Virus record (IMG/VR): IMGVR_UViG_3300030372_003714
Span: 1-64,000 of that record
Source of the DNA: a virus
Lineage: Duplodnaviria > Caudoviricetes
Strand: one strand, 5' to 3'
Length of the DNA stretch: 64,000 nt
Each line of letters opens with the position of its first letter. Position 1 is the first letter of the stretch. Below the pieces are notes generated by a model, which was not told where the DNA came from, searched no databases, and worked only from the letters and a program-made list of their open reading frames with translations. Shown here piece by piece: positions 2,991 through 34,160 of the stretch. The translations under genes were made by a program, and so were the position numbers.

Positions 2991-3012
2991 TATTTTAAAC
3001 TAATTTTAGTTC

Positions 3013-6432: not shown

Positions 6433-6460
6433 TTTTATTTCTTTTCTACGTTATCGTCTT

Positions 6461-10364: not shown

Positions 10365-13300
10365 TTAACGATAAGAAGGTCTAAAAAATGTTTTAAAATA
10401 GTGTAAAACAAACTTTATATTCCTTGGTTCACCTACTTCTGTGTTATAATTATTATATATTAAATCAATAAGCATATACTTATCTCTAAGTCTATCTTTA
10501 TGTTGTCTAGATGCATCATAATTAAATACATTAAATATATCTGCATCTTGAATATTTTCATCCATTACATTTCTTGGAACAGCCATTTGCCATTCTCTTT
10601 CTTTCTTTTTGATATTAGTCCCTGGAGTTACATCTATATAGTCAGTTATTTGATAATCAGTATAAAATCTAATCTTATCAAAAGTATTATCTTTTATATC
10701 TATAGGTTTAATATTAGGATTACCTGAATATAATCCTGTTATTCTATTTGCACCAAAAAGTGATTGATTGCCTATAGCACTCTCTGCTCTCCCCACTTCC
10801 CATAAACTTTCCATATGGAATGATACATTATCAAAAACTTTTGTTGCTGCTGATTCTAAATTAGAAATAAGAGTAACACTACTTGGGTAAATAACATCAT
10901 AGAATTTGCCATATGCTCCTACATTATGTAAGTATAATTGATTCTCTTTCCATCCCGGAATATCTATATCTGACTCACATACATTTTGTGTATTTGGAGT
11001 TATCATAAATTGTGGAGTTGTAATATAAATAGATGGAGTAAAATCATAAAATGAAGTAAATCCTTGAATTAACTCATTATATGCTATAGTAGTACTTTTA
11101 GTTCCTATACCACATTCCATATTGGCTATTTGCATAGTTCCTTGCATAGCCCATAGATCATCAAATGTTACATTGTCTGGTTGAAAACCTGGATTAGTAT
11201 TCCAACCTTCTGGTATCCATAATAAAAGATCTCCTGCTTGCCAGTTAAAAGTATTAGGATTAGGAGTAGGGAAGTTTGGACATCCTACTTTACCTACTAT
11301 AACTCCCATAAATGGGCCTTTACCATTAACTAATATATTATTAACTACAATAAAATCAAAACTAGCTAAATCTCCAAAAGCAAACTCTTCGCAATCTGTA
11401 TTAAAGCAAGGATTACAAGCTCCTCCTGGTACGTTACGTAAAACAAGTCCAACAATTCTATTAGGTGTAACTCCTGTAAGATCCTCTTGTATAATTGTTT
11501 GATCATATTTTCTTGTATATCCTGCATCATGGAATGTAAATAAAGCTTCACTATTACCTGGATCATAAGTTGAGCTTATTCCTTTTTTCATAATAGGATT
11601 ATCATTAGTTAAAACATCACCTCGCAATTCATCTGTAAAGAATGAATGTAATCCTGTTATATCAGATAATGGAGTAGTACCTTTACTACTATAATTAAAT
11701 AATTTTCTTGCTTTTATATCAAAAAAGTAAATAGCGTTATCTGATTTTGTCACAGCCCATTGTTGACTTGATCCAAACTGAGTTGATATATATTGATACG
11801 ACTGTATAAATGCTCCAGCACCAGAACTTATAGTTCCTAACTGTAAAGCTGTTCCATCAGCTGCTTGGACCATCGCTGTTGGATTAACAGATAAAGCCCC
11901 AAATCCAGTATCTTGGAAATAATACATTGTATCATGCAGTGTTACAAGTTTATTAATAGGTCCATAAACACCTTCTACATCTTTATAATTATCTATTAAA
12001 AAGACTGACCATGAATCACTAGGTTCACCATTAATTTTTGTTTGAGAATAATATATTCTTGTATCAAACTCATCTCCTCTAGAAAAAGATAAAGGTAATG
12101 GGAAGTATGTTCTAACATTATTCTGAGCATTGTATGCTTCATTTAATAAATACTCATCATGTAAACTGATTCCTGTATTAGGATAACTTCCTGAGTTTGT
12201 TGCTTTTGCAGAAAAATGATACCCATGTCTCCATAAAATGTTTTTATAATGACATTCTAATGGAACCATACAGGCTCTCATAGATCCCCAATCTGCATCT
12301 TCAGGAGCTCCTGACCCTCCAGATGCTGTTATACTATCATAGTTATCAAAATCTGTTTGTCCCCAATTCTTTTCAAATTGTGTATAATCAAATATCTGAC
12401 ATTGTACATCCCCTCCAAATACTGAGTTTATAAAAGGAGCGTTTAGATTTGAAGATGAATTAATAGGAACATAATGACCAGTTGACATATATTCACTATA
12501 TGTTCTTGCTGCATATGTAGGGCCTCCATAAGGAGTATTATATCTTTCATAACTAAAAGTACTTCTTGTAGGAACTGCTTGGAACTGAGCTGGTGTTGGA
12601 TTAATTTGAACAGATGTAGTAACAGAAGCTCCCATAATATGATCTGCTCCAGTCCATTCTTTCCCATCTTCTTCAAATCTTAAAAATAAAGTTTCACTTC
12701 CTATAGACATTGGTCTATTCCACATCCACGTATAAGAAAGAGAATTAGGAAAGTTCATAACATCCATTAATCCCGCCCATGCAGGATTAGTTACATTCAT
12801 AAATGGCCATTGAAGACTAGGTACAGAAGTGTTTTCTATATAACCACCATCTGGAACCCAAGTACCCCATTCTAATGAATACCTATTATTTGCTGGGTCC
12901 ATACCATTATTATTTGCTATTACTCCATTAGAATAATCTATTTGAGTACTTTGAACTGAACCAAATATACCTCCTACTAAGTTTACACCTACATAATACT
13001 TATACCAATGATTAGCTCTTTTTTGATAATATCCGTTTGGTAAACCGGCTCCTGTGCTCGTTGGTGCAAAATTATTTAGACCCATAGTAGCATTAAAGTG
13101 AGGAAAATAAACTTGATCTATTTTAATGTAATCTCCCTTCTTTATAGGGAAAGTTGTTTCTAGTCCTTCATTTAAATTACCTTCTTCGGTCAGATCACTG
13201 TTATGCCATCCTAAAGCACCATATAATAATAACTCTGTTTTACGTGTTTTACAAACCCAATACGGGTTATCATTCATAGCTATTACGTTCCAAGTTGCGT

Positions 13301-16726: not shown

Positions 16727-17217
16727 TCAAAATAGTCTACTTGTTTATTTTTTAATAATCCTGCTAGTCGTCTTTTATTAGTTCGAGTAGCTTGGAAACT
16801 ATAAATAGTTTTATTCTTTACTATAGCTTTTTTCTTAGACCAAAACCAACGATAATTAAATCCGTCGGTATGATCATTAAGATGATAAATTACTTTACCA
16901 TGCTCATTTGTAGATTTCCAATCTATCTTTAACTTATTCTTACTAGAAGAATAATTCATTTCTTTTTTTAAGATTCTAAGACTTCCTAATCTATACGGCA
17001 TCTTAAACTCTTTAGCTTTTAATAATATTTCATCAATTATTAATTTATTAAACGCCTCACATATGCCGCGGTATTTTTTATACCCGACATTATAAAAGTC
17101 ATCATACTCTTTATAGGCTTGTACTAATGTACAACTAGCCTGCGGAGTTTTGTCTAGGAGCTGGCTGCATTTGCCCGCTATCTTCTTTTGCGTTGTTTTC
17201 TTCATCGCTTGGTGCAT
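16723..17217 (-). CDS. IHF/HU-like DNA-binding protein (crAss-like)
   Basis: KEFKMPYRLGSLRILKK...IDWKST...YHLNDHTDGFNYRWFW; conserved IHF-like gene between ring genes. True start uncertain because of an 83-nt overlap upstream. Confidence 0.65.
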   Translation of the reverse strand: MHQAMKKTTQKKIAGKCSQLLDKTPQASCTLVQAYKEYDDFYNVGYKKYRGICEAFNKLIIDEILLKAKEFKMPYRLGSLRILKKEMNYSSSKNKLKIDWKSTNEHGKVIYHLNDHTDGFNYRWFWSKKKAIVKNKTIYSFQATRTNKRRLAGLLKNKQVDYFE

Positions 17218-17863
17218 TTAAAATTATATTAACTCTTTTCTGAAGTATTATACTAGTAACCTGTTCGGCCATAGATAAAGAAATTGGAAAAGGGTATTCC
17301 CAGTCATATTCACAAGCTGAAAGGATTGGATTATGTGACGACGTGCAGTGGTTTATTTTCCAAACTTCCTCTGGATCTTCAAACACTCCGGTAACTTTTA
17401 CTGCTTCTATACGAATGTCGCAACTTACATATAAGTAGCCATTCTTTATATACCATCTTTGGTTGGAGCCGGTATATTTGTTATACTTATTCCATTTTCG
17501 GCGGGTATCCGTGGTTTCTGAGAAAGGTCTCATACCATCTAAAGATTCTACGGCTAATATACTATCTCTTCCGTTTCGCTGGATAGTCGTGGGAATAGGA
17601 TTTACAGATTTAAGAATATGAATACCAGACTCTAGCTCACAACATTCAGAAGCATCGGCTGGCTCAAGATAAACACAATTTAGATATTCTACACAAACGG
17701 CAGGTACTCTGACTTTCCTGCTCATCATTTGAGATAATAGCATAGAACGCTCTTGCTTTACCCAGTATGCAACTTGTCTAAAGCTTAAATCAGCGTCATC
17801 GGAGCTCTCTCCTCCGTATGCTATGTTTTGTATATCATATACTATTGTATTTAAATTTGTCAT
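17135..17863 (-). CDS. Tail ring protein
   Basis: MTNLNTIVYDI...DLSFRQVAYWVKQERSMLL...WYIKNGYLYV...VTGVFEDPEEV...FPIS pattern of crAss-like ring proteins. Confidence 0.7.
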   Translation of the reverse strand: MTNLNTIVYDIQNIAYGGESSDDADLSFRQVAYWVKQERSMLLSQMMSRKVRVPAVCVEYLNCVYLEPADASECCELESGIHILKSVNPIPTTIQRNGRDSILAVESLDGMRPFSETTDTRRKWNKYNKYTGSNQRWYIKNGYLYVSCDIRIEAVKVTGVFEDPEEVWKINHCTSSHNPILSACEYDWEYPFPISLSMAEQVTSIILQKRVNIILNAPSDEENNAKEDSGQMQPAPRQNSAG

Positions 17864-21093: not shown

Positions 21094-24000
21094 TTAACAG
21101 TCCGATAAATAATCTTTCCATAAATCATATAACATTGTTGAGCTTAATTGCTGTATTGGGTAACTAGGTATATGGAAAGACATACCATAATTACTCAATG
21201 ATCCTCCTTGGTATCCTGTTGTATGAGTAGGATCTCCTCCTCCTGATGCTCCCATATATGGATTAGGTATAGTAACATCTGTTGCTACATAACATTGGAA
21301 ATTATATACTGATGGAACATCAACATAACTTGCACAATCTATATGTCCTTGATATGAAATAATAGCATCTTTACTCTGTGCTCCTACTGCTCCCATTAAA
21401 TGGAATATGAAATCTCTTCGTGTAGTAACTACATTTGTTACACTATGATCAATATAAGATCCTGCATATATCATTGTTTTTTGTGTAACATTATGAGATG
21501 TTAAATTAGGATCTCCATTTGCATCCCAACCATATTGGTGTAAACTCATATAGTTATCATAATCATTTTTCCATTGAGGCATCAGTGTATTATTAGGTCC
21601 TGTACCTATTTCATGCCAGTTAAGACCTGGCTGTCCGCCCCATAATGCATTTCCACAAGTACCTCCCCACGCATTTCCACTACTACCAACATTAGTTTCA
21701 TGGTATCCACCTGGATTACCTCTAGACTCGTCTTGGAATACAACCACAATACTGTCTAAATCTCCTCCTTCAAACTCATGATAAGGATCACTGAATCCTT
21801 CTTCTCCAAATGGGTCTTGCCATGGATTAACTTGATTAAATCCATCAGTTGCATAAGATCCAGGTAAGATCATTATTTGTTTTAGTAATGGTCCATGTGT
21901 AGCTGCAATGTATGCTGGATTATTACAATCAGCTGGTGCTCCGCCTATTCCATCTACCATAGTATGAGCCATAACTGTTCTCTTATTTGCAGGTAAAGTT
22001 CCTGTTGCCATTGGATTTACTCCGGCTCCATTTGCTCCTTTGTTACCGCTTAGTGGATAGTTAACCCAAGCTAACCAATCTTCTGGTGCTGTAGCACTAC
22101 CTGGTGCAGCTGCTCCTGTATTATTACAATTATTACAAGGACCAAACTGACTTCCATGAGCCCAAGCCCCAGGAATAACATATAGATGTCCTGAGTATGT
22201 TGGGAAATTTGATTTTATCATTTGGAATGCTGGCTCAATTACATTTACTTTAAAGTCAAGCATTGATGACAGTCTATCAAGGAATGATCCTCCAAATGTT
22301 GAAGTCATATCAAGGAATACATATATGTTACTGTTACCAAAGCATCCAGTATCACATGTTACTTCTTGATCTGTTAATCCAAATGGTACATTACAATCAT
22401 CACATACATCAGCTACTTTATCGAAGAACTTTTTCATATCTATTTCATCTAAACAATTTTCACAAATAGATTCAAACGTTCCTCCTTCTGGCTCATAACT
22501 AGCACAGTCTAAAGCACAGTCTTGTAATGTTGGGTATTGTCCTGTTCCCTGGAAGTTTTGTATACATCCAAATACTGGATCACAATCCCAAGACGAAGAT
22601 ACTCCTCCACATGATGGATCTAATGGACATCCATTACATCCTTGACATGCGACTAATCCTCCATTAGTATTATTAAATGTTCCTGTTCCATCACCTGGAT
22701 CAATACATTGTGTTACTCCATTATTTATAACACAGTTATATGATTCTACATAACATGGTTGTGTATTCATACTTATTGCCATATTACAATTAGCAAGTGT
22801 AGCAAATGTACCTGAACCATCTCCTGGATCAGAACAAGAATATGAATTAGTAGCTGCACTATAAATACAATTATATGATTCTGGTGTACCACAATTTTGT
22901 ATACATGCTTGTACACTAGCATACTGACCATTACCTGTTCCAGGATCAAAACATGTTTGAGTTAAAGGATCACAATCCCATGATGGTGTGTTAGGGCAAC
23001 ATTGTGGTGAGGCTAAACATGCAGCCTGAGATGGGAAACCTGGTCCCGCTGTCGGTACACAGTTACATCCTCCTAATGGATCACATTCCCAAGCAGTTTG
23101 TCCTCCAGTACATAAAGCACATGAAGCGTATGTTTGTGTTACATTTACACTTAAACAAGTAGCTGGATCACAATTTATAATATCATCACAAGATATTTCA
23201 TAACATATAGTAGCATTACCATTTATATTTATAACTTCTCCATTTATATAAGCATTATCTAAATCTGCAGACTGACATACATTATTAATTACAATAGTAG
23301 GATCTGAACAATCTGTTAATTTATAACATGGACATCCTGAACCACTTTCACAATCTGGACAGGTTGGATGAACTGTATTTAATACAACTGCTCCTACTGG
23401 ATTACATGAACCTGTTCCACAAGTACCACATAATTGAACCTCATAACATTCAGTTGTATTTAATGGCGCTGGAGGTGCTCCTCCTAGTGTTACAACTTGT
23501 CCTAATTCTGCAGATAGATCATTTGTTACTACAGTACAAGTACTAGTACAACTACAAGGACCACCGTTTATTGCAAAACAAGCTAATGATCCATCAGCAC
23601 TAACATAATTCTGTGCCAGCCACGTTTGCATTGTATTATAATCCATAGCTGCATTACCATAACCTGCTGCTACTAACTCAGCTCTAGCTGTATCCCAACT
23701 CTCAGTTTGACCCCAATAAGAATTAGTCATGCCATCTAGCGGCTGATTAGGATTAGTACCACATTTATAAATACGTAGTCCTGATAAAGAAACTATCATG
23801 TTTCCAGTAATAGGATCAGTACAATGACTTGATTGACTAGGCAGGATACTGTTTACTAACTTTTTAGTATTATGCAAATCAGTTGGATTATCTATAGAAT
23901 ATTGTTGATATCCATTGGAATATCCAACTCCATTAGCTGTAGATATTAAAGTACGAGTACTACACGAGTCAGTACCACTAAAGGTACACGTACAACTATT

Positions 24001-27000
24001 AGTTCCAATAACAATATTACCAGTGGTTCCGCTAAACCATGCATTGAATTTTGTCCTTAAAGAAGTATAATTATCTGCTACAGTAACTCCTGTAATTCCT
24101 AATGCTATAGCCTCATTACGTAGAGTAGTCCAATTTGAATAACTAATCTGAGAAAAAGGATTTGGAGCACCTATAGCTTGTATACCCCAAACACCTCCTT
24201 GGTTTACCCCAGAACCTGGGAAACCAAATAACTCACAAGGTTGTACAGAGCTTACAGTTGCATATTTTAAAGTCGCAAAATCAACATTATCAAATCCATT
24301 TCCTGGTGTAGTGATAAAGTCACTTGCTGCCATATGTTGATCACTACTAGTAGCTCCTGCAAATGGAGTTGGTGAAACCAGAGTTAAAGTATTTATGTCT
24401 GTCCCATTACAGGTCCCTACAGATACGGTAGAATCACAAGGACATAACTGATAACATTGTTCATTAGATACACAACAGTCCGTACAGTTTTGATATGTAT
24501 TTGTTACAACTACCGTTACTGCTCCCGTTGAAGGACATGGCTGTGGTGTGCAATCTATTTCATAACATGCTCCTGGATATAAATCTATTTCTACTATAGT
24601 ACCTGTACCAATCATACCACTACAATATAATGATAAATCTGTATCAGTAATTATTTGTGCAGGGGCTCCTGCTACTGTATTACAAGAACATAAATTTAAT
24701 GTATAACAAGGATTTACCAAACCACAATCAGTACAATCTCCATTTGGATCTCCTGAAACTAAATTTACAGGGTTAATCAGTGCAACTCCTCCTGGACATG
24801 GATTTATTATATCAACTTCCCAACATCTTTCGCCTGCTGGATCTCCATTATCCCAAGTTATAATTCCTCCAACATATCCTGCAAGAGCCGGATCATCAGA
24901 ATATTCTGTAATATACGTACATCCAGAACCTTGTAAACACACACCATCTTCACATCCAAAATTTACATTTGGATTTCCATATATACCACATGTAGCTCTT
25001 CTATCATATATTCCTTCTGGGCCCATTAAACCTGTAGGGAAATCAGTAGCAAAAGAATTACTACTTGAGAAAGGTCCCATTAATGCATCAGCATTATAAA
25101 TAGCGCCTGGGCAATTATCAGGTAAACCATCGTTATCATTATCTTGATAAAGATTAGGACAAGTAGGATCACTTTGGAAACAAGGACAATCACAAAGACT
25201 ATCACATCCATTAGCTGCTCCAAATGTTAACCAATCATGGCCATATCCAAATGCGTGTAGTATTTCGTGTATACCTACTCTAATTAAAGAAAATGAATTT
25301 GCTACTACTGCATCTCCTGCTTTTCTCCAGTTTTCATTTGCATCAAATAATAATAAACCTACTTCTGGAGAAGCTTTAGCAATTCCTGGATCATTGAAAT
25401 TTAAATTTCCTGTAAAGCATAATCCTAATATTCCTGAAGCTCCTCCAGTATTACCACATCCACTTCCTCCTGCTGGATCTAATGCTCCAAAGTCTGAGAA
25501 TCCAATTCTAAAGTCTCCTATTCCTGCTACTCCATTACTATCAGTAAAAGATGTTCCATTGTTACCAGTTATAGTGTTTGTTCCCATTGCTGGATCACCT
25601 GCAGTATATCCAGTTTCATATCCTAAATCTGTAAAGTTAACAGTTAAATTAGCTCCATATCCACAGTTTGTATTAAATACTCCTTCAAGCATTGCTTTAA
25701 TTTCAGCAAACATTGTTTGCATTTCTGCCTTAAACTGTACATGTGTAATCGTATATGTTTTATTATAAGGAGCACAAAATGGCCAAGAACTAATTCCTGT
25801 TGTATTAGCTGTACCTGGCCCTTGTTCACAAGCTAAAGCTGGACCAAAACCAGGAATACCTATTGGGAATGTAGCTCCATCGTTAATGAAACTATAGCTA
25901 AAGTCTACTGTTTGTGCTATACCTGGTGCTCCCTGTGTTCCTAATGCTTGTACTGCATTTACTAATGCCGCCCACCTTTGTGGTGTATTATTTATACATG
26001 TAGGAGACCAAGTCTTTCCGTATGTAACCATATTCGGAGGCATCGTTGCTGGATCATTTACTGAACACTGATTAGCTGGTCCAGAAGTTCCTCCTGTACA
26101 TTCACACTCTGTTAATTTATAACAGAAGTTTGGTGGAGGTGCACAATCTGTACAATCATTATGTGTAACTGTAATAACAGGATCTGGGTTAATCACATTA
26201 GCCGGATCACATGGACAAGGCATATTTAACCATGTTGGGAATCTTTCTCCCATAGGTCTATTACCTATATCATAAGAAGGAACTGGATTTATAAGCTCTA
26301 GTCCCTGCTCTATTGCTAATGCATTATTAGGATCATCTAATCTTAATAATGAATTTGTTATTTGATTTCCTGCTCCTACTTTTAGCATGTATGGATTATC
26401 TTGTAACTGTTCTACTATATTTAGCCAAAGTTTACCATCTGGTCCTACAACTAAATCATTAATCATAACATTACATCTAGTTACATCTGTCGGAGTTCCA
26501 TACCATCCTGAAGCAGTAGATGCATCAGGGAATGATTTAACATGGTCTGTATAGCCTCCTGCAGAATTTGTAAACCACATAAATGGAGCCGCGTTCGGTC
26601 CTGCAGCATCAAATGCAGCAGCATCATCTGTTTCATTGTAAAATACAAAAGCTTGTTGAGCGGCCATTTCTATAGCTAATCCTTTTAATTTTAAGATTAT
26701 TATCCCAAATCCACTTTTAATTAAGGTATTATTATAAGGATCATTTGTATCATAATATTGAGTCCCTGATAAAATTAAGTTTCTTCCATTAGGACTAAAA
26801 GCCATAGAATCTACTCTGTCAAGAAAATAATCACCTACATATGCTCCAAGTGTAGGAGATTTTTCTCGGTGTATCCCAAGAACAATGGAATTGAAAACTC
26901 CATTGTTTGCTCCTCCGTTATAACCATTATTGAATGTCCATCCTATTGCTGCAGTCGCTGAATCTCCTGTAACAGGATTTAACCCAAAAGCAAAGGTTTC

Positions 27001-30000
27001 TGAAGCTACGTTATTAAGATCATCCCCTTCAAACCTTACAGCTATAATATCATTTGTTTGATTTACTAATAATTCACCAGATCCTATTGTCTGGGTTCCA
27101 GATGCAGCTGAATTATTCCATCTACCAGTTACGACATCTACTGCAACAAACGCTGTACCTATTCCGGCACTACTAAATTTAATACCTTTGATATGCTGAT
27201 TAGCCCAATCTGCACCGTTAGACATAACAGGAACATAGTAGAAATGCCAGTAAGCGCCAGATCCTATTCCCGTAGTTGTATTTACACACATAACCTCAGA
27301 TGCTGATGCTGCTAAAGTCGTATTGTCAGATGCAGCTAGTACTTCTCCTTTTCCTGAATTAAGAGTCATATCAACTATAGACCATTTTATAGGACCATTT
27401 CCAGCACTATTTTGTATTACATAATACTGATGCCACACTCCATCTGTTACTCCTCCTGCAGCGTTTGGAATAATTACTGCTCCTTGAGCTGGGAATGTTT
27501 TACCATCTGAACTTGTTGCTCCTTGATTTGCATTTCCCTCATGTACGGGACCTGAATCAAGATTCATTTTAGTGTGAGTTCTATCATATATCCAATGACC
27601 GTCTGTATAGAACATTAAATCTCCTGCCGCAAAAGCGTGTCCACCTATAGTAGCTGCTCCTGTTGCAGAATGTACTGCTGCTCCTCTAAAAGTATAAGCA
27701 TCTGAATTTGGTGCATTCGAGGAGTTAAAGTTTAACATAGTAGATTGTCCATTAAAATCTGCTACCGGTGCTCCTGTACTAAAATCTATTCCTAGTCTAT
27801 CTCCATAGAACCAATTTGTACCTGCTATTGGATTTCCTTGGCTAGTACATTGTTTCCAACATCCTATTTGTCCTCCTAATTCTACTACATCTGTTCCTAT
27901 TGTAGCACCAAGTCCTCCTGATACAGTTATTGTTGTTCCTGGATTAGTACATGATTCTAATAATGTACATTGAGGATCACATGGATTTACTAAACAATAA
28001 CTACAATCTGGCATATTACCTGTTCCTACTGTTGCTGTAGCTATCGCAGTTACATCTGCATCTGGTAGCATACCAGTACAATCAGCACTAGCACTTACTG
28101 TCCAACATCCTGTATAAAGAATACCACCTACTGTTATATCTGCTTGAACTACAGATCCTACATCAGCAGCTGTAATACCTGTTGTTACATTAACAATTTG
28201 ATCTGGTACATATGAAGGACCACAACAATGTGCTACTTTTACACATGTTTGTCCTGAAGTAGCGCAATCTGCACAATCTGCATAAGACGCAGTTATTGCT
28301 CCAGTAGGATATACTACTGTTGTAGGTCCTAAACAACCTACTAATACTTTATGACAATTATCTTGTGCTACTCCCCCTATTGTAATATCATGAGCATTAG
28401 CTGCTCCAATAAAAGGATGAAGTGTCGGAGAATTCAAATAATCAACACTAGTTATATTTCCTGTAACACAATCTTCAACTCTTAAATAATATCTACAAGA
28501 AGCACAATCTACTTGGGTAGATGATACAGTTAGAGCTGCCTCAGTTCCTTGAGGACCGGTTGGATTAATTTGTATTTCTCTACAGAAACATTCTCCTGCT
28601 AAATGTACTACTACTCCTGCTGCAAAATAAGCATCTATTAATGGAGTTGATGTAGCTCCTACTCCATTAACTGTATATACAACATCAGTAGGATCTCCAC
28701 ATTTTGGTAATTTATAATATACTGTTGGATCTGGAGTACAAGTAGGACAATCTGAATATGGCCCAGGACTAGTATCTAATATAACTGATACTGGGCTTAT
28801 ACAAGTTGGAGATTTTTCTACATACCAACAAGTACCTCCTTGAAGTCTTACATATAAACCTATATAAGGAGATAATATAGCTTGAGTACTATATTGTATA
28901 ACTCCTGTATCACAATTTGTTAATTTATAGCAACAATCTTCTGTACCTGGTGCACTTAAACAATCAACACAGTCTGTATATAAAGTTACACTAGGATCTG
29001 TATTATTTGGCCACTTAGAACATATATCATTATAACCTAAACCTGTAGGAATATTCGTCCAAGCATTTGTTGCTGTAACTGGGTTAATTAAACCTATTAC
29101 AGCTGTCTGTCCAGTACCAGCATCATTTAATGTATGTAAAAATAATTCATAATTACCAATACCTACTAGCTTTGCAGATATAATATAAGTAATACTAGTA
29201 GCTATACTAAGACCTCTAACTCTTTCTATACCATATGCATCTTGTCCTGCAACAAAACTACAAACAGTAGCTAAGTCAGATATTACTGTATGATTACCAT
29301 TAGCATCATCAATGCTCATTAATTTATTTAAACCTCCAGCTCCAGTATTATCTCCTAATACATAATAATCACCGCTATTATAATCTACAGATAAATCATA
29401 TCCTAAACTAATAGTTGCATTAGTTACACTACCTGCTATTGCTATACCTCCGCTTAAAGAATTAGTATATCTAGCAAACGTCGCATTTCCTCCTACCATA
29501 TCACCTGCTACAATATGTCCTGTTGCACTATAATCATAATCTAAACATTGAGGAACTGTAAAAGCATTGGTAATTAGCTCAGGATCAGATATATAACTTG
29601 GCCACGCTGATGCCCAAGATATATCAGTAGCGCCTGATGTATATATAATATTACCATGTTTATCAAATGTTAGATCTTTTAGATTACCTATAACACCATT
29701 CCATGTAGTAAATTCAGAAATAGAACAAGTACCATTTAGTACATTATCAATAGAATAAATATTTCCATCTTCAGAAGTAAACCAAAAATGCTCTGTTGGA
29801 GCTGTTGCTTCACCACAAACTGGCGTTCCTCCATTACTAACTGAATATACATCGCCAGCTACTACAGTAGTTAAATCATTAGTAATTATTCCAGGCATTT
29901 CTACTGGGCCTAAAGAATACGTTCCTCCTGTTGGAGTTGTAGCTTCAATACAACATGGTAAAAATCCTATACATCTATCTTGAAAAACATCTAAACATGC

Positions 30001-32607
30001 TCTACAAGTATTATAAAAAGTATCAGGTTGTTGCCAGTCACAAGGTTGAACATGATGTGTAGTAGGAATTTCTGATGTATAACAAAAGAAACATCCTCTA
30101 TGCTCTCCAGTAGCTGGTAGTTGCCAAACATCTGTATTAGGATCATTACATTTACCTGCATAGAATGCATAATCTGGATCTATACCTAATATTCTTAATG
30201 GGCTGTTCTCAAAATACCAAGCTGCATTTGCAGTTGAACATGACATAGGAAGACTTGTCCAAGGGAAAAGTCCAGGATCTGTAACTATTGAAGTAGCAAA
30301 TGCTGCCCAAACTATAGCAGCACCTGATGCTACATCCCCATTATGTGTTACTGTTGAACCTAAAGCTCCTGTTGTAATCTGTACTTTATCCGTACCACCA
30401 ATTCTAGAAATTGTTATAGTAGTAATATTTCCTGGAGCTGCATTTGTACATAAAGTCCAAGCCCCTGCTACTGTATCATATATAGCTACTCTATCACCAA
30501 AAGCTACATATACTAACTGAAGTGATACATCTACTCTACTATATGTGGCAACAGCAGTAGGATGTTTACCTGCTAATGCGCCTCCAAATGCAGATGATAT
30601 ATCAATTTGAGACGCGGCAGACCAAGCGCTTACTTCATTAGTATCTGTTTTTATAGCACCAATACTATAAATATTAGTTTCTCCTGCTTTTAATCCTACA
30701 AATTGAAATGTATCACATAATAGATCGGTAGTAGGATTTGTTTGTCCTCCACTTGCTGGGCCAGTCCACATCACATGACTTACAGCTTTAATAGATGCCC
30801 AATTAGCTAAATTAGCTCCACCTATTGCTTGTGGATTTGTTATTGTAGAATTATCACTATTCCATTTTAAATAGCTAACACTATTACCCCCGGTTGGAGA
30901 ATCCCATATATACAGATTATCAGTATATTGATTATGTGCTAATCCTATAACTCCTGCGGCACTTAATTGCCCAATATCTGCAAGTTTATTTACTCTAGCA
31001 GTTGTAACAAGATTAGTAACGAGCCAAAGACCTTTATCAGTATCTAAGTATACCATGTCACCCTGATTACACTTTTTAATTAAAAGATCAGGATTAGCTG
31101 AAGTTGCATATGTACATGGAGTAAATTGTGGGGCTCCATATCTATAATATGTATTATCTAATAAAGTACCTACCATACTAGCTGTAGGAGCAGTAGTTAC
31201 CGGAGCGTTTACATTTTCTATAATACAGTGTTGTATTGGATTACTTGTTGTTGTATCATTTGTACTGTATATTTCTGGATAATGTGTACTCCAAGTTGGG
31301 CTAGTAAAGGTTACTGATAAAGTCCATTCACCAGTTTTTAATGGTGTAGAAACAAAAATTCTTCCACTTTTTTGTGGATCTCTCCATATACCTGCAATAA
31401 TTCTTCCGTTATGATTTGGCTCCCATATATTAATTCCTGCATTATCATTAATATCTATAGCTCCCTTATTTGTTACAGACCATACATTTAAGCTATTTAT
31501 TTCATTCCAAGCAATTTGTAAAGTAGGAGAAGCAGCCCCAGAAGAATCTAAATTACCATAATAAAGATGTCCCTTAGTAGCTGTACTATCATGAGACCAA
31601 ACAGCATACATATTATAATATCTAGAATCGTCTCCTGGAGAAGCTGGCCATGGTCTTGGTCCTTTGTCTAATCCATTTGTATTTTGGTATGTTGGATTAG
31701 ATAGTTGTCCTGTAGTACCATCAAAAGAGAGAACTTCAACTTTATCTAAAAGTTGCGGAACATCATTAGTTCCGACAGTAGGTCTATATATTGTTGCTAC
31801 TTTATGATTATTTACTCCAGTTGTAGATATTTCTAAAGGTGTAACATCTACTACACCATGAGGACCATTATCTTGCCAGCCAGTATAATTTGTACCTACA
31901 GCACTCACAATAGGCACACTATAAGATTGATCAATTATAGGCCATCCAGTTGAGTTTACTGCTAGAATTTGCCATGTAAGCCATCCATTATCAGTCCAAG
32001 TACCAGAACTAGAAGTAGCTGACTTTGCAATTATCCAAAATCCACTATCATATGCTGGATTAGGAGCTTTATATGTTCTTCTGCATATTGTTGCCATACG
32101 TCCCCCAACACCAGTTTGAGAACCCGATAATGTACCTAGTGTTCCTCCTGGAGGAGTTTGTCCAGATAATGTATAATTACTAAATGTTCCTAATCCACCA
32201 TCACCTGACATATCAACTAATCCTACTCGTATACCACTGGTTAAAGCATTTGAGAATACCCAATAATATCTACCTTTATCAATTTTTGCTACGTCAGCTA
32301 ACGTATCTGGAACTTTAACTATATTTACAGATTGTGGTAAACTTTTAATTCCTCCAGTAGTACTGGAGCCATTCATTATATTACCAGTTCTATTAAAAAT
32401 TTGATTACCGTCAGAAAAAAACATCAAGTCTCCATCAGCATAAGACTGTGCTCCATGAGTTACTGCACCATCTGCAGTTATTGTTGCACTAGACCAATGA
32501 GCAGTACGATCAGGAACACTTTCATTTATTGGAGGAGTGGCACCATTTATTGTATTAGTTAGTATTTGAGTACCTGTAAACCACTTTTGATAATCTTTTG
32601 CTGACAT
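21094..32607 (-). CDS. Giant 3837-aa Cys-rich multidomain protein (two beta-propeller-like blocks, Cys-rich repeats, metzincin protease domain); probable virion appendage
   Basis: Uninterrupted ORF in the tail-fibre region; HEILHAFGYGH plus Met-turn; repeated CYxLxxC...YxxCxxC modules. Confidence 0.8.
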   Translation of the reverse strand: MSAKDYQKWFTGTQILTNTINGATPPINESVPDRTAHWSSATITADGAVTHGAQSYADGDLMFFSDGNQIFNRTGNIMNGSSTTGGIKSLPQSVNIVKVPDTLADVAKIDKGRYYWVFSNALTSGIRVGLVDMSGDGGLGTFSNYTLSGQTPPGGTLGTLSGSQTGVGGRMATICRRTYKAPNPAYDSGFWIIAKSATSSSGTWTDNGWLTWQILAVNSTGWPIIDQSYSVPIVSAVGTNYTGWQDNGPHGVVDVTPLEISTTGVNNHKVATIYRPTVGTNDVPQLLDKVEVLSFDGTTGQLSNPTYQNTNGLDKGPRPWPASPGDDSRYYNMYAVWSHDSTATKGHLYYGNLDSSGAASPTLQIAWNEINSLNVWSVTNKGAIDINDNAGINIWEPNHNGRIIAGIWRDPQKSGRIFVSTPLKTGEWTLSVTFTSPTWSTHYPEIYSTNDTTTSNPIQHCIIENVNAPVTTAPTASMVGTLLDNTYYRYGAPQFTPCTYATSANPDLLIKKCNQGDMVYLDTDKGLWLVTNLVTTARVNKLADIGQLSAAGVIGLAHNQYTDNLYIWDSPTGGNSVSYLKWNSDNSTITNPQAIGGANLANWASIKAVSHVMWTGPASGGQTNPTTDLLCDTFQFVGLKAGETNIYSIGAIKTDTNEVSAWSAASQIDISSAFGGALAGKHPTAVATYSRVDVSLQLVYVAFGDRVAIYDTVAGAWTLCTNAAPGNITTITISRIGGTDKVQITTGALGSTVTHNGDVASGAAIVWAAFATSIVTDPGLFPWTSLPMSCSTANAAWYFENSPLRILGIDPDYAFYAGKCNDPNTDVWQLPATGEHRGCFFCYTSEIPTTHHVQPCDWQQPDTFYNTCRACLDVFQDRCIGFLPCCIEATTPTGGTYSLGPVEMPGIITNDLTTVVAGDVYSVSNGGTPVCGEATAPTEHFWFTSEDGNIYSIDNVLNGTCSISEFTTWNGVIGNLKDLTFDKHGNIIYTSGATDISWASAWPSYISDPELITNAFTVPQCLDYDYSATGHIVAGDMVGGNATFARYTNSLSGGIAIAGSVTNATISLGYDLSVDYNSGDYYVLGDNTGAGGLNKLMSIDDANGNHTVISDLATVCSFVAGQDAYGIERVRGLSIATSITYIISAKLVGIGNYELFLHTLNDAGTGQTAVIGLINPVTATNAWTNIPTGLGYNDICSKWPNNTDPSVTLYTDCVDCLSAPGTEDCCYKLTNCDTGVIQYSTQAILSPYIGLYVRLQGGTCWYVEKSPTCISPVSVILDTSPGPYSDCPTCTPDPTVYYKLPKCGDPTDVVYTVNGVGATSTPLIDAYFAAGVVVHLAGECFCREIQINPTGPQGTEAALTVSSTQVDCASCRYYLRVEDCVTGNITSVDYLNSPTLHPFIGAANAHDITIGGVAQDNCHKVLVGCLGPTTVVYPTGAITASYADCADCATSGQTCVKVAHCCGPSYVPDQIVNVTTGITAADVGSVVQADITVGGILYTGCWTVSASADCTGMLPDADVTAIATATVGTGNMPDCSYCLVNPCDPQCTLLESCTNPGTTITVSGGLGATIGTDVVELGGQIGCWKQCTSQGNPIAGTNWFYGDRLGIDFSTGAPVADFNGQSTMLNFNSSNAPNSDAYTFRGAAVHSATGAATIGGHAFAAGDLMFYTDGHWIYDRTHTKMNLDSGPVHEGNANQGATSSDGKTFPAQGAVIIPNAAGGVTDGVWHQYYVIQNSAGNGPIKWSIVDMTLNSGKGEVLAASDNTTLAASASEVMCVNTTTGIGSGAYWHFYYVPVMSNGADWANQHIKGIKFSSAGIGTAFVAVDVVTGRWNNSAASGTQTIGSGELLVNQTNDIIAVRFEGDDLNNVASETFAFGLNPVTGDSATAAIGWTFNNGYNGGANNGVFNSIVLGIHREKSPTLGAYVGDYFLDRVDSMAFSPNGRNLILSGTQYYDTNDPYNNTLIKSGFGIIILKLKGLAIEMAAQQAFVFYNETDDAAAFDAAGPNAAPFMWFTNSAGGYTDHVKSFPDASTASGWYGTPTDVTRCNVMINDLVVGPDGKLWLNIVEQLQDNPYMLKVGAGNQITNSLLRLDDPNNALAIEQGLELINPVPSYDIGNRPMGERFPTWLNMPCPCDPANVINPDPVITVTHNDCTDCAPPPNFCYKLTECECTGGTSGPANQCSVNDPATMPPNMVTYGKTWSPTCINNTPQRWAALVNAVQALGTQGAPGIAQTVDFSYSFINDGATFPIGIPGFGPALACEQGPGTANTTGISSWPFCAPYNKTYTITHVQFKAEMQTMFAEIKAMLEGVFNTNCGYGANLTVNFTDLGYETGYTAGDPAMGTNTITGNNGTSFTDSNGVAGIGDFRIGFSDFGALDPAGGSGCGNTGGASGILGLCFTGNLNFNDPGIAKASPEVGLLLFDANENWRKAGDAVVANSFSLIRVGIHEILHAFGYGHDWLTFGAANGCDSLCDCPCFQSDPTCPNLYQDNDNDGLPDNCPGAIYNADALMGPFSSSNSFATDFPTGLMGPEGIYDRRATCGIYGNPNVNFGCEDGVCLQGSGCTYITEYSDDPALAGYVGGIITWDNGDPAGERCWEVDIINPCPGGVALINPVNLVSGDPNGDCTDCGLVNPCYTLNLCSCNTVAGAPAQIITDTDLSLYCSGMIGTGTIVEIDLYPGACYEIDCTPQPCPSTGAVTVVVTNTYQNCTDCCVSNEQCYQLCPCDSTVSVGTCNGTDINTLTLVSPTPFAGATSSDQHMAASDFITTPGNGFDNVDFATLKYATVSSVQPCELFGFPGSGVNQGGVWGIQAIGAPNPFSQISYSNWTTLRNEAIALGITGVTVADNYTSLRTKFNAWFSGTTGNIVIGTNSCTCTFSGTDSCSTRTLISTANGVGYSNGYQQYSIDNPTDLHNTKKLVNSILPSQSSHCTDPITGNMIVSLSGLRIYKCGTNPNQPLDGMTNSYWGQTESWDTARAELVAAGYGNAAMDYNTMQTWLAQNYVSADGSLACFAINGGPCSCTSTCTVVTNDLSAELGQVVTLGGAPPAPLNTTECYEVQLCGTCGTGSCNPVGAVVLNTVHPTCPDCESGSGCPCYKLTDCSDPTIVINNVCQSADLDNAYINGEVININGNATICYEISCDDIINCDPATCLSVNVTQTYASCALCTGGQTAWECDPLGGCNCVPTAGPGFPSQAACLASPQCCPNTPSWDCDPLTQTCFDPGTGNGQYASVQACIQNCGTPESYNCIYSAATNSYSCSDPGDGSGTFATLANCNMAISMNTQPCYVESYNCVINNGVTQCIDPGDGTGTFNNTNGGLVACQGCNGCPLDPSCGGVSSSWDCDPVFGCIQNFQGTGQYPTLQDCALDCASYEPEGGTFESICENCLDEIDMKKFFDKVADVCDDCNVPFGLTDQEVTCDTGCFGNSNIYVFLDMTSTFGGSFLDRLSSMLDFKVNVIEPAFQMIKSNFPTYSGHLYVIPGAWAHGSQFGPCNNCNNTGAAAPGSATAPEDWLAWVNYPLSGNKGANGAGVNPMATGTLPANKRTVMAHTMVDGIGGAPADCNNPAYIAATHGPLLKQIMILPGSYATDGFNQVNPWQDPFGEEGFSDPYHEFEGGDLDSIVVVFQDESRGNPGGYHETNVGSSGNAWGGTCGNALWGGQPGLNWHEIGTGPNNTLMPQWKNDYDNYMSLHQYGWDANGDPNLTSHNVTQKTMIYAGSYIDHSVTNVVTTRRDFIFHLMGAVGAQSKDAIISYQGHIDCASYVDVPSVYNFQCYVATDVTIPNPYMGASGGGDPTHTTGYQGGSLSNYGMSFHIPSYPIQQLSSTMLYDLWKDYLSDC
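22490..23110 (-). repeat. Five tandem ~35-40-aa Cys-rich repeats, [W/Y]xC...C.DPG.G.G.[Y/F].[S/T]...C
   Basis: AWECDPLGGC, SWDCDPLTQTCFDPGTGNGQY, SYNC...CSDPGDGSGTF, SYNC...CIDPGDGTGTF, SWDCDPVFGC...GTGQY. Bounds approximate. Confidence 0.75.
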
Positions 32608-32625
32608 TCTTATTCTTTTATTTAA

Positions 32626-33306
32626 TTATACTTCCTGTTTAGGATAACACTTTAATTCAACCCAGTGACCACTTTCATGGAATCCTGTATTCATAGGATT
32701 AGGTTCTGTAATACTAATAAAATATTTACCTCTTTTAGTTTGATTTGCTCCTACTCCTCCGCCCATAAATCTAACTATATCTCCCATACCATAAACTACT
32801 GATGCGTCCCAATCAACACTTCCTGCAGCTTGCCAAGCTTCTTTTACATGCCCACAAACACTCCATGTTGCTGGACCAATTCCATTAAGTCCTGTCATAC
32901 AAGGAAAAGCGAAACCAGTATTATCAAAACATGTGCCTGCTGGTTGTACCAAAGGGGCTACTCCTTGCCATCTTAAATATAAATATTCTCCTGGATTTGC
33001 GTTTGGTTTCATATAAGCTTTTACTACTTTTCCGTATGGGATAGTTCCATAAGATTGTGTCCAAACAATACTACCATCTAATTCCCACTCACCTTTACAA
33101 TTACAAGGTAATGGTGAATAACATTCTATAATTTCAATATAAGCTCCTAAAAGTTTTAAATTGCATAGTTCATCTTTACACTCTTTTCCAAAGCGTTGTT
33201 TATCAACTAGTTCTGCTGCTTTTGTAGCAAAGCAACATTTTAACTTATTTAATCTATAAGTTATATCATATTCTGTTATTACTGTAGGCGTCGCTGTTTT
33301 ACTCAT
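32626..33306 (-). CDS. Tail-associated structural protein with possible CBM5/12-like module
   Basis: Helical Cys-containing N-terminus; 'WDASVVYGMGDIVRF...KYF...WVEL' resembles the W-x5-Y-x2-GD-x-V carbohydrate-binding signature. Confidence 0.45.
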   Translation of the reverse strand: MSKTATPTVITEYDITYRLNKLKCCFATKAAELVDKQRFGKECKDELCNLKLLGAYIEIIECYSPLPCNCKGEWELDGSIVWTQSYGTIPYGKVVKAYMKPNANPGEYLYLRWQGVAPLVQPAGTCFDNTGFAFPCMTGLNGIGPATWSVCGHVKEAWQAAGSVDWDASVVYGMGDIVRFMGGGVGANQTKRGKYFISITEPNPMNTGFHESGHWVELKCYPKQEV

Positions 33307-34148: not shown

Positions 34149-34160
34149 TAAATATCTTTT

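What the first reader, a model, noticed from the sequence alone, without database searches (positions are those of the whole stretch)
21094..32607. 3837-aa modular, Cys-rich giant protein in the tail-fibre locus (top candidate for a new system)
Seen, N to C: propeller-like block, further beta-rich blocks, Cys-rich modules, second propeller block, metzincin domain, more Cys modules, five short Cys repeats, and a globular C-terminal domain. There is no obvious signal peptide, and it lies next to fibre and hub genes. Inferred: a long virion appendage combining adhesion and proteolysis, for example to penetrate S-layer, mucus or biofilm. This cysteine density (not counted exactly) is unusual for a protein assembled in the cytoplasm.
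Basis: partly seen in the sequence, partly recalled or inferred. Interest (0 to 1): 0.85.

Follow-up and report, generated by a model that had tools for sequence, protein, structure and literature searches.

The report
Giant protease-bearing tail protein, marine crAss-like phage
A marine crAss-like phage, and at least 15 related ocean phages, encode a conserved 3,837-residue cysteine-rich protein in the tail gene block that combines domains copied from host surface proteins with an apparently intact zinc protease, so it is probably a tail appendage that both binds and cuts the host's protein coat.

Summary
The ORF is real: window 21094-32607, minus strand, 3,837 aa, 159 Cys (4.1%). It is not an assembly chimera. 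At least 15 collinear homologues of 3,200-3,844 aa (25-62% identity) lie at the same position in independently assembled marine crAss-like phage contigs of about 76-89 kb.

The gene sits in the tail module, between the hub/fibre genes and ring protein R2, ring protein R1 and the true muzzle protein.

Architecture, N to C:
- a beta-propeller;
- beta-rich blocks;
- four or five Cys modules;
- a second propeller;
- an M10 (matrixin-like) metzincin with invariant HExxHxxGxxHD and ALMGP Met-turn;
- two Cys modules;
- a hypervariable module;
- two Cys modules;
- five 4-Cys mini-repeats;
- a conserved 450-aa C-terminal domain of unknown fold.

Both propellers are homologous to the N-terminal domain of Bacteroidota T9SS-secreted surface proteins. 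The closest outside relatives of the protease are bona fide M10 domains, including proteolytic flagellins.

Predicted ejected proteins of this phage contain no cysteine, whereas the tail-surface genes have 4-5%. That argues for an external location.

Virion incorporation, protease activity and substrate are all untested. AlphaFold models were poor. No homologue exists in 50,697 GenBank phages.

The scan separately noted a reprolysin-type protease in another marine crAss-like phage's muzzle protein; I did not check that note.

Verdict: a new variant of an enzyme-armed phage fibre.

The parts
21094..32607 (-). Whole ORF, 3,837 aa plus stop (P0001)
   Evidence: collinear homologues
31048..32607 (-). 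aa 1-520: propeller block 1. It begins at the position where the bacterial homologues' mature chain begins, and has no signal peptide
   Evidence: homology to the N-terminal domain of T9SS cargo proteins; no signal peptide
29008..31047 (-). aa 521-1200: beta-rich blocks of unknown family, including a 9-Cys cluster at aa 801-900
   Evidence: no Pfam family; not modelled
27817..29007 (-). aa 1201-1597: first array of Cys modules (four full modules and one partial), each CYxLxxC ... CW/YxV ... YxDCxxC
   Evidence: Cys invariant
26278..27816 (-). aa 1598-2110: propeller block 2
   Evidence: fold matches
26038..26277 (-). aa 2111-2190: partial Cys module or linker
24928..26037 (-). aa 2191-2560: M10 (matrixin-like) metzincin domain, with a Cys-rich insert between the zinc motif and the Met-turn
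25234..25269 (-). HEILHAFGYGHD zinc-binding motif (aa 2447-2458), invariant in the family
25072..25086 (-). ALMGP putative Met-turn (aa 2508-2512), invariant
24403..24927 (-). aa 2561-2735: two Cys modules
23578..24402 (-). aa 2736-3010: hypervariable module. Identity is 21-32% where the flanks are 66-78%, and length is 119-288 aa among relatives
23098..23577 (-). aa 3011-3170: two Cys modules
22456..23097 (-). aa 3171-3384: five short 4-Cys repeats (W-x-C-D-P ... G-x-G-x-Y/F ... C-x3-C)
21097..22455 (-). aa 3385-3837: conserved C-terminal domain of unknown fold, ending ...LWK(D/E)YLS(D/N)C (Cys at or next to the C-terminus)
32626..33306 (-). Upstream 226-aa Cys-rich ORF (4.9% Cys), co-transcribed (18-nt gap); candidate adaptor
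   Evidence: a counterpart is present in L016
33306..34148 (-). 280-aa collagen-repeat/tail-collar fibre protein, with 10 Cys in its first 30 residues
34161..34769 (-). 202-aa Cys-rich ORF (5.0% Cys). It resembles tail hub THA only by position, size and Cys content
   Evidence: no sequence match
17135..17863 (-). Ring protein R2 homologue
   Evidence: crAss001 gp40, E 2e-11; Pfam CrAss_Ring_2 on the gene at this position in L016
15965..16726 (-). Ring protein R1 homologue
   Evidence: crAss001 gp43, E 1e-16
10365..15965 (-). True muzzle protein, 1,866 aa
   Evidence: Pfam crAss_MUZ, E 8.5e-151

Best explanation
The ORF encodes the main external tail appendage (fibre or adhesin) of a clade of marine Crassvirales that most likely infect Flavobacteriia-type Bacteroidota.

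Shown:
- It is a real, strongly conserved late gene inside the tail module.
- It carries two beta-propellers homologous to the N-terminal domain of Bacteroidota T9SS-secreted surface proteins.
- It carries an M10-type metzincin with all catalytic-motif residues conserved.
- It carries about ten copies of an uncatalogued Cys module with invariant cysteines.
- It has one hypervariable module.

Inferred mechanism:
- The chain folds in the cytoplasm without export and is mounted on the tail collar, possibly through the neighbouring Cys-rich 226-aa and 280-aa collagen-like proteins.
- Its Cys modules are locked by disulfides or metal once the virion reaches oxidising seawater, and they act as rigid spacers.
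- The propellers and the hypervariable module bind host surface structures.
- The displayed metzincin cuts the dense layer of host surface proteins so that the short podovirus tail and muzzle can reach the outer membrane. This would be a protein-directed counterpart of polysaccharide-depolymerase tailspikes.
For: Gene reality and conservation:
- 13 full-length homologues at 34-62% identity.
- Two collinear ones at 25-33%.
- Identical synteny in a Tara Oceans contig: Crass_capsid, Ring_3_4, the giant gene, Ring_2, Ring_1, MUZ.

Tail-module position:
- Homologues of R3/R4, gp33 and the capsid protein lie upstream. R2, R1 and the muzzle lie downstream.
- There is an 18-nt gap to the upstream gene and no terminator after the ORF.
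- The slot where crAss001 keeps fibres gp22-26 holds only a 349-aa lysozyme-like ORF here, so fibre genes must lie elsewhere.
- Flavobacterium phage Fpv1 has the same backbone with other genes in this slot.

External rather than ejected:
- The four ORFs in the positions that hold cargo and virion RNA polymerase in crAss001 and Fpv1 contain 0 Cys in about 7,950 aa. The giant ORF and its three upstream neighbours have 4.1-5.0%.
- The same split holds in Fpv1.
- It also holds in crAss001, where cargo has 4 Cys in 5,066 aa and hub THA has 5.1%. There, cryo-EM located the cargo inside the virion and showed disulfide-bonded hubs outside (PMC10172136).

Adhesin character:
- Both propeller copies align from the first mature residue of signal-peptide-bearing Bacteroidota proteins that carry PKD and CHU_C or Por_Secre_tail domains.
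- At least 464 genomic matches were found. Nearly all of the 80 listed are Bacteroidota, including marine Flavobacteriaceae (Winogradskyella, Nonlabens, Mesonia).

Protease:
- HExxHxxGxxHD and ALMGP are invariant.
- 8 of 9 family members hit Pfam Peptidase_M10, best E 2e-7.
- A family profile retrieves 101 proteins. All ten non-family hits that I scanned matched Pfam M10, nine of them above the Pfam cut-off (E down to 4e-21), and three of them are flagellins with an inserted M10 domain.

Specificity module: aa 2736-3010 drops to 21-32% identity between relatives whose flanks are 66-78% identical.
Against: - There is no direct evidence that the protein is in virions.
- There is no sequence similarity to any known fibre or virion-attachment domain. 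PHROGs gave 0 hits and tblastn against 50,697 GenBank phages gave none.
- The N-terminus has no docking peptide like that of crAss001 gp22. The propeller starts at about residue 9.
- P0001 itself scores below the Pfam M10 cut-off (18-22 bits against 24).
- An insert of about 50 aa with 6 Cys separates the zinc motif from the Met-turn, which is unlike known matrixins. Activity is therefore not assured.
- AlphaFold models were poor (mean pLDDT 47 and 39). Oligomeric state, Cys chemistry and domain packing are unknown.
- The substrate is pure inference.
Confidence: 0.55

Rival explanations
1. Self-processing precursor. The metzincin acts in cis or on neighbouring copies to cut the giant chain into several mature tail pieces, such as a separate C-terminal domain. 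This would be analogous to the auto-cleaved C-terminal chaperone domains of other phage fibres. It would not act on the host.
For: In three related assemblies the gene is broken within one 65-residue stretch (aa ~3320-3385). The C-terminal domain can then start at a conserved internal Met, which shows that the domain can exist as a separate polypeptide. The modular beads-on-a-string architecture is also compatible with cleavage.
Against: No metzincin-based fibre maturation is known. The protease is flanked by rigid-looking Cys modules rather than obvious cleavable linkers. A maturation protease would not need adhesin-type propellers next to it. The breaks may also be assembly errors in a repeat region.
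Confidence: 0.12
2. A late protein that is not part of the virion and is released at lysis. It might be a receptor-destroying or matrix- and particle-degrading enzyme-adhesin that frees progeny from cell debris or marine aggregates, or blocks superinfection.
For: There is no recognisable virion-attachment domain. Release by lysis would explain extracellular-type Cys-rich modules without a signal peptide.
Against: The gene is embedded between hub/fibre genes and ring genes in one operon, at a fixed position, across homologues down to 25% identity. Apart from the 280-aa collagen-like protein, no other fibre candidate was seen among the window's late ORFs searched. The hypervariable module is typical of receptor-binding proteins.
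Confidence: 0.12
3. A capsid-attached (head) fibre or decoration that tethers virions to particles, mucus-like gels or non-host surfaces. This would be a BAM-like adherence role, with the protease remodelling that matrix.
For: crAss001 has head fibres whose genes lie among the structural genes (PMC10172136). The adhesin-like modules are equally compatible with non-host binding.
Against: Known crassvirus head fibres are about 100 aa, not 3,837 aa. The gene sits among tail hub and ring genes, not next to the capsid or auxiliary capsid genes.
Confidence: 0.1
4. An internal cargo protein ejected into the host, with the protease acting in the periplasm or cytoplasm.
For: Crassviruses package very large proteins, and the gene lies in the same late operon.
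Against: ORFs in the cargo and virion-polymerase positions of this phage, and the cargo and virion-polymerase proteins of Fpv1 and crAss001, are essentially Cys-free: 0, 0 and 0.08%. This protein has 159 invariant Cys. Its domains are of extracellular type, and it lies upstream of the muzzle rather than in the cargo block downstream.
Confidence: 0.04

Closest known systems
Proteolytic flagellins (flagellinolysins; Eckhard et al. 2017, PMC5595980)
   Same: An M10-type metzincin is displayed on a large extracellular protein assembly that is built without classical Sec export. These are among the best non-family hits of the phage metzincin profile (E 4e-19 to 5e-11) and pass Pfam Peptidase_M10.
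   Different: The scaffold is a flagellin, not a phage protein. They have no Cys modules or propellers. The phage domain has a Cys-rich insert of about 50 aa before the Met-turn and an Asp after the third His.
Matrixins / bacterial MMP-like proteases such as karilysin of Tannerella forsythia (MEROPS M10A)
   Same: HExxHxxGxxH, an ALMxP-type Met-turn and the upstream FDxxExW strand. Karilysin and MMP-14 are the best PDB sequence matches.
   Different: The PDB match is weak (E 0.12). There is no PRCGxPD cysteine-switch prodomain. The residue after the third His is Asp, not Ser. The domain is embedded in a 3,837-aa chain.
Phage tailspikes and fibres carrying depolymerase domains (for example crAss001 gp22, annotated polygalacturonase/tailspike in its GenBank record, and, from general knowledge, K1F endosialidase)
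   Same: A receptor-binding appendage that carries an enzyme to clear a path through the host envelope. The gene is in the tail module.
   Different: Known examples degrade polysaccharide, not protein. They are typically 500-1,300 aa and about 1% Cys. There is no sequence similarity.
Bacteroidota T9SS cargo proteins with an N-terminal propeller plus PKD plus a CHU_C or Por_Secre_tail domain ('gliding motility-associated C-terminal domain' proteins)
   Same: The N-terminal propeller domain is homologous: 25-35% identity, with shared motifs NWxFG, LLFYTDG and YSIVDMTLNSGxG.
   Different: The phage protein has two copies, no signal peptide and no T9SS C-terminal sorting domain.
Crassvirus muzzle protein (crAss001 gp44; Pfam crAss_MUZ)
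   Same: A very large tail protein containing a beta-propeller, and highly conserved in the order.
   Different: It is not this gene. The true muzzle is the 1,866-aa ORF at 10365-15965 (E 8.5e-151). The giant ORF has no similarity to it.

Membership tests
Metzincin / Peptidase M10 (matrixin) | Extended zinc-binding motif HExxHxxGxxH | tested here: met
   HEILHAFGYGH at aa 2447-2457. H2447, E2448, H2451, G2454 and H2457 are invariant in 14 sequences and in 9 loci.
Metzincin / Peptidase M10 (matrixin) | Conserved Met-turn downstream of the third His | tested here: inconclusive
   An invariant ALMGP (aa 2508-2512) resembles the matrixin ALMYP. It lies about 50 residues after the motif, behind a Cys-rich insert. 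No reliable 3D model exists to confirm the turn.
Metzincin / Peptidase M10 (matrixin) | Score above the Pfam PF00413 gathering cut-off | tested here: inconclusive
   P0001 scores 18-22 bits against a cut-off of 24. 8 of 9 relatives match, best E 2e-7. P0013 and P0030 carry a precomputed PF00413 hit.
Metzincin / Peptidase M10 (matrixin) | A reciprocal profile search recovers bona fide family members | tested here: met
   The family profile finds 101 proteins at E<1e-3. All ten non-family hits scanned matched PF00413, nine of them above its cut-off (E down to 4e-21).
Metzincin / Peptidase M10 (matrixin) | Cysteine-switch prodomain (PRCGxPD) of zymogen matrixins | tested here: not met
   There is no PRCG motif anywhere in the protein. 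This feature is not universal in bacterial M10 enzymes.
Metzincin / Peptidase M10 (matrixin) | Zinc-dependent proteolytic activity | not testable with these tools
   Needs a biochemical assay.
Phage tail fibre / receptor-binding protein | Gene located in the tail morphogenesis module | tested here: met
   It lies between the collagen/tail-collar fibre and hub-like genes on one side and R2, R1 and the muzzle on the other. The position is the same in L016.
Phage tail fibre / receptor-binding protein | Physical presence on the virion | not testable with these tools
   There is no cultured member. It is indirectly supported by the split in Cys content between cargo and external proteins.
Phage tail fibre / receptor-binding protein | Homology to a known fibre or attachment domain | tested here: not met
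   PHROGs gave 0 families. tblastn against GenBank phages gave no match. PDB sequence searches gave none.
Phage tail fibre / receptor-binding protein | A locally hypervariable specificity region among close relatives | tested here: met
   aa 2736-3010 is 21-32% identical, and 119-288 aa long, where the flanks are 66-78% identical.
Bacteroidota T9SS cargo surface proteins | Homologous N-terminal propeller domain | tested here: met
Bacteroidota T9SS cargo surface proteins | Sec signal peptide and a C-terminal T9SS sorting domain (CHU_C or Por_Secre_tail) | tested here: not met
   No hydrophobic N-terminus. No such Pfam domain. The protein shares a domain with this family but is not a member.
von Willebrand factor A domain (for the C-terminal domain) | Profile similarity to VWA and a MIDAS motif DxSxS...T...D | tested here: inconclusive
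   There is an ESM Atlas lead of 0.89 and the motifs FLDMTSTFGG and VVVFQDES. However, the Pfam VWA HMM finds nothing in the genome at E<=10. hhalign against 15 Bacteroidota VWA domains gives probability 0.1%.
Crassvirus muzzle protein | Match to Pfam crAss_MUZ | tested here: not met
   Only the neighbouring 1,866-aa ORF matches. P0001 does not.

The most novel reading that the evidence does not exclude
This would be the first virion-displayed protein 'depolymerase' fibre. It would be a tail appendage of about 400 kDa, assembled from modules taken from the host's own T9SS surface adhesins and held rigid by about 80 post-lysis disulfides or metal sites. Its MMP-like protease would shave the host's surface-protein coat to expose the receptor. 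Together with an unverified scan note of a reprolysin in another marine crAss-like phage's muzzle, this would make protease-armed tails a general entry strategy of marine Crassvirales against Flavobacteriia.
Probability: 0.35. Interest if true: 0.78.

Novelty: new variant of a known kind. Interest (0 to 1): 0.62.

Why it matters
Phage appendages that digest polysaccharide are textbook. Appendages that carry an MMP-like protease are not. This protein family has no counterpart in 50,697 deposited phage genomes.

If the protease is active on the virion, it defines a new way for podoviruses to cross the protein-rich surface of marine Bacteroidota, which are key degraders of algal organic matter. 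It would also be a natural example of host surface-protein domains being reused for host recognition.

Three parts have no match in Pfam or, by sequence, in the PDB: the Cys module (about ten copies), the 4-Cys mini-repeat and the 450-aa C-terminal domain. AlphaFold could not fold them with the available alignments, so they are candidates for new folds.

The sharp contrast between Cys-free ejected proteins and Cys-rich external tail proteins may give a simple sequence rule for telling crassvirus cargo from surface components.

Tried and rejected
- **Structure prediction.** AlphaFold2 on aa 1600-2640 (9 sequences) and aa 2640-3837 (8 sequences) gave mean pLDDT 47 and 39. Only the second propeller reached 50-80. 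The metzincin, Cys modules, variable module and C-terminal domain could not be modelled, so disulfide versus zinc chemistry could not be judged.
- **PDB sequence and profile searches.** The whole protein, the whole-family alignment, the C-terminal domain and the Cys modules gave nothing significant.
- **Family libraries.** PHROGs and NCBIfam gave no family. Pfam on the C-terminal 1,198 aa of 8 relatives gave none.
- **VWA idea for the C-terminal domain.** An ESM Atlas lead was not backed by the Pfam HMM or by hhalign (probability 0.1%).
- **Muzzle hypothesis.** Rejected, because the real muzzle is the next large gene.
- **Assembly-chimera or repeat-collapse hypothesis.** Rejected.
- **Diversity-generating retroelement for the hypervariable module.** No template-like direct repeat was found in the window.
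- **Terminator or own promoter around the gene's 3' end.** None beyond chance.
- **GenBank phages.** tblastn of both halves of the protein gave no match, and megablast of the structural region gave none.
- **ESM Atlas on propeller 1.** Only a weak PD40-type lead.
- **Local phmmer of reference ORFs against loci L011-L014 and L017.** It returned nothing, possibly for a technical reason, and I did not pursue it.
- **Complex prediction.** Not run. The domains concerned could not be folded, so a failure would have been uninformative.
Full report
**1.
Window 21094-32607 (minus strand) is one open frame of 3,837 codons in DNA of 33-38% G+C. It contains 159 Cys (4.14%), is rich in Gly, Thr, Asn and Ser, poor in Lys and Arg (3.5%), and very acidic, with 339 D+E against 134 K+R. 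It has no N-terminal hydrophobic stretch and no segment that scores as transmembrane.

Self-comparison shows that aa 10-140 resemble aa 1618-1754. Cys-containing segments recur at about aa 1200-1600, 2106-2197, 2550-2730 and 3011-3170, and short repeats recur at aa 3196-3372.

**2. What the window is.**
The window is the first 64 kb of a complete 88,720-bp virus record with terminal repeats. It is a crAss-like phage:
- terminase, portal and major capsid protein are recognised;
- the capsid protein is 42-44% identical to gut crAss-like phages;
- the 1,866-aa ORF at 10365-15965 is the crassvirus muzzle protein (Pfam crAss_MUZ, E 8.5e-151);
- phmmer against crAss001 proteins assigns R1 (15965-16726), R2 (17135-17863), R3/R4 (36263-36964) and gp33 (36964-37737).

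The giant gene therefore lies inside the tail module. Upstream of it are a 202-aa Cys-rich hub-like ORF, a 280-aa collagen-repeat/tail-collar fibre and a 226-aa Cys-rich ORF. Downstream are R2, R1 and the muzzle.

In crAss001 the tail fibres gp22-26 are encoded between the portal and capsid genes. Here that slot holds only a 349-aa lysozyme-like ORF.

Flavobacterium phage Fpv1, an isolate with the same backbone, has a 663-aa and a 290-aa gene (the latter annotated 'peptidase') where the giant ORF sits. This looks like the exchangeable fibre slot of this lineage.

**3. It is a conserved family, not a chimera.**
- Thirteen full-length relatives (3,202-3,844 aa, 34-62% identity) come from ENA, JGI and NCBI assemblies, most on contigs of 86-89 kb.
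- Nine IMG/VR loci carry the gene, and those with both flanks have a crAss-type 482-483-aa capsid-size ORF upstream and a 1,620-1,750-aa muzzle-size ORF downstream.
- Two further collinear relatives at 25-33% identity were found. One is on a Tara Oceans scaffold with identical synteny.
- Module content and module number are constant across the family. Only aa 2736-3010 varies in length, from 119 to 288 aa.
- Nearly every cysteine is invariant.
- No DNA-level repeat exists inside the gene.
- No homologue exists in 50,697 GenBank phage records.

**4. The propellers.**

By sequence, both copies are homologous to the N-terminal domain of Bacteroidota proteins that carry a signal peptide, PKD domains and a T9SS sorting domain (CHU_C or Por_Secre_tail). 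One of these is named 'gliding motility-associated-like' by its source.

A scan of one genome per prokaryotic species found at least 464 matches. Nearly all of the 80 listed are Bacteroidota, including marine Flavobacteriaceae such as Winogradskyella, Nonlabens and Mesonia.

The bacterial proteins begin with a signal peptide and then NWYFG. The phage protein begins MSAKDYQKWFTG, at the position of the mature N-terminus, with no signal peptide. These are therefore host-type surface-protein domains in a protein that is not exported.

**5. The protease.**
HEILHAFGYGHD (aa 2447-2458) and ALMGP (aa 2508-2512) are invariant in every relative.
- P0001 alone is just below the Pfam Peptidase_M10 cut-off.
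- Eight of nine relatives match it, best E 2e-7, and five also touch Reprolysin_5.
- A profile of the domain, searched against 1.84 billion representative proteins, finds 101 proteins at E<1e-3.
- All ten non-family hits that I scanned matched Peptidase_M10, nine of them above the Pfam cut-off (E down to 4e-21). Three are flagellins with an M10 insert, that is, proteolytic flagellins (PMC5595980). One is a Tectonin-propeller fusion.
- The best PDB matches are karilysin and MMP-14, and they are weak (E 0.12).

It differs from classical matrixins in three ways. Asp follows the third His. There is no PRCG cysteine switch. A variable 30-60-residue insert with six Cys lies between the zinc motif and the Met-turn, and in this phage it includes a DNDNDG calcium-loop-like motif.

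I conclude that this is an M10-type metzincin domain with an intact catalytic motif. Activity is not shown.

**6. Cys modules and other dark parts.**
Eight clear modules and two or three partial ones share the pattern CYxLxxC ... G-x-V-x-L ... C(W/Y)xV ... C ... YxDCxxC, about 65-85 aa long. Five shorter repeats carry four Cys each. Neither has a Pfam, NCBIfam, PHROG or PDB sequence match.

The C-terminal 453 aa are the best-conserved long stretch after the metzincin region, ending ...LWK(D/E)YLS(D/N)C. They occur only in this family or as fragments of it. A VWA-like lead from the ESM Atlas was not confirmed. Whether the cysteines form disulfides or bind metal could not be determined, because the models were too poor.

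**7. Inside or outside the virion?**
In this genome, the four ORFs in the positions that hold cargo and virion RNA polymerase in crAss001 and Fpv1 contain no cysteine at all. They are 1,282, 1,139, at least 996, and 4,536 aa long. The giant ORF and the three genes before it have 4.1-5.0%.

The same split exists in Fpv1. It also exists in crAss001, where cargo gp45-49 have 4 Cys in 5,066 aa and hub THA has 5.1%. For crAss001, cryo-EM placed the cargo inside the virion and showed disulfide bonds stabilising hubs and rings (PMC10172136).

By this rule the giant protein belongs with the external tail parts. This is an inference, but it argues clearly against a cargo role. A Cys-rich protein assembled in the cytoplasm is normal for crassvirus tails, although the crAss001 fibres have only about 1.2% Cys.

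**8. Mechanism proposed.**
*Shown:* conservation, position, domain homologies, intact catalytic motif, hypervariable module.

*Inferred:*
- The protein is mounted on the tail collar.
- The Cys modules act as stiff spacers that are fixed once virions are in oxidising seawater.
- The propellers and the hypervariable module bind the host surface.
- The metzincin cleaves host surface proteins so that the short tail can reach the outer membrane.

*Rivals:* self-processing of a precursor, a non-virion lysis-released enzyme, a head fibre, and cargo. The one observation that favours self-processing or modular independence is that three related assemblies break the gene within aa ~3320-3385, leaving the C-terminal domain as its own ORF starting at a conserved Met.

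**9. Novelty.**
No paper in the searched library describes a matrixin on a phage fibre or a Cys-rich giant protein in marine crAss-like phages. I did not verify that note. This genome's muzzle shows no such domain.

I class the finding as a new variant of a known kind, an enzyme-armed phage appendage, with several uncatalogued domains.

Noticed in passing
window 3-10309 (-) and genome 74975-88585 (-), compared with window 21094-34769 (-): The four ORFs in the positions that hold cargo and virion RNA polymerase in crAss001 and Fpv1 (1,282, 1,139, at least 996, and 4,536 aa) contain zero cysteines in about 7,950 residues. The external tail genes have 4-5% Cys. The same contrast holds in Flavobacterium phage Fpv1 and in crAss001. 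It may be selection against Cys in proteins that must thread through the tail.
   Followed up: partly
L003:19600-19700; P0008, P0009 and P0015: In three related assemblies the giant gene is interrupted at different points, all within the last mini-repeats (P0001 aa ~3320-3385). The C-terminal domain then forms a separate 447-479-aa ORF starting at a conserved Met (IDMKKFF). This is either a real gene split or an assembly error in a repeat.
   Followed up: partly
window 33306-34148 (-): The 280-aa fibre protein has 10 Cys in its first 30 residues, then a collagen Gly-X-Y run, then a phage tail-collar domain. It is a likely hub-docking trimer.
   Followed up: partly
window 40543-41592 (-): A 349-aa ORF with an endolysin- or lytic-tail-protein-like domain sits between the portal gene and the gp31-like gene, where crAss001 encodes its tail fibres.
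   Followed up: no
window 17868-19013 (-): A 381-aa DNA-repair-exonuclease-like ORF, with an N-terminal HNH-like stretch, lies in the middle of the tail module. Fpv1 has an 'exonuclease' at the same position.
   Followed up: no
L017:10001-20599: An unrelated 81-kb JGI contig encodes a 3,532-aa protein with an M10 domain, dockerin-type repeats and LDL-receptor-B propeller repeats. It sits next to a 907-aa propeller protein. This may be a second lineage of giant protease-bearing proteins.
   Followed up: partly
L012:246-1715 and equivalents in L011, L013, L014: Viral contigs of 26-39 kb encode proteins of about 490 aa (one ORF is cut at 383 aa by a contig end) that have a signal-peptide-like N-terminus and the same T9SS-cargo-type propeller, with a weak Pfam DUF6923 hit.
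   Followed up: partly
genome 74975-88585 (-): This is a single 4,536-aa ORF. It is comparable in size and in lack of Cys to the 4,401-aa Fpv1 gp33, which is annotated 'virion structural protein'. It is presumably the fused virion RNA polymerase.
   Followed up: no
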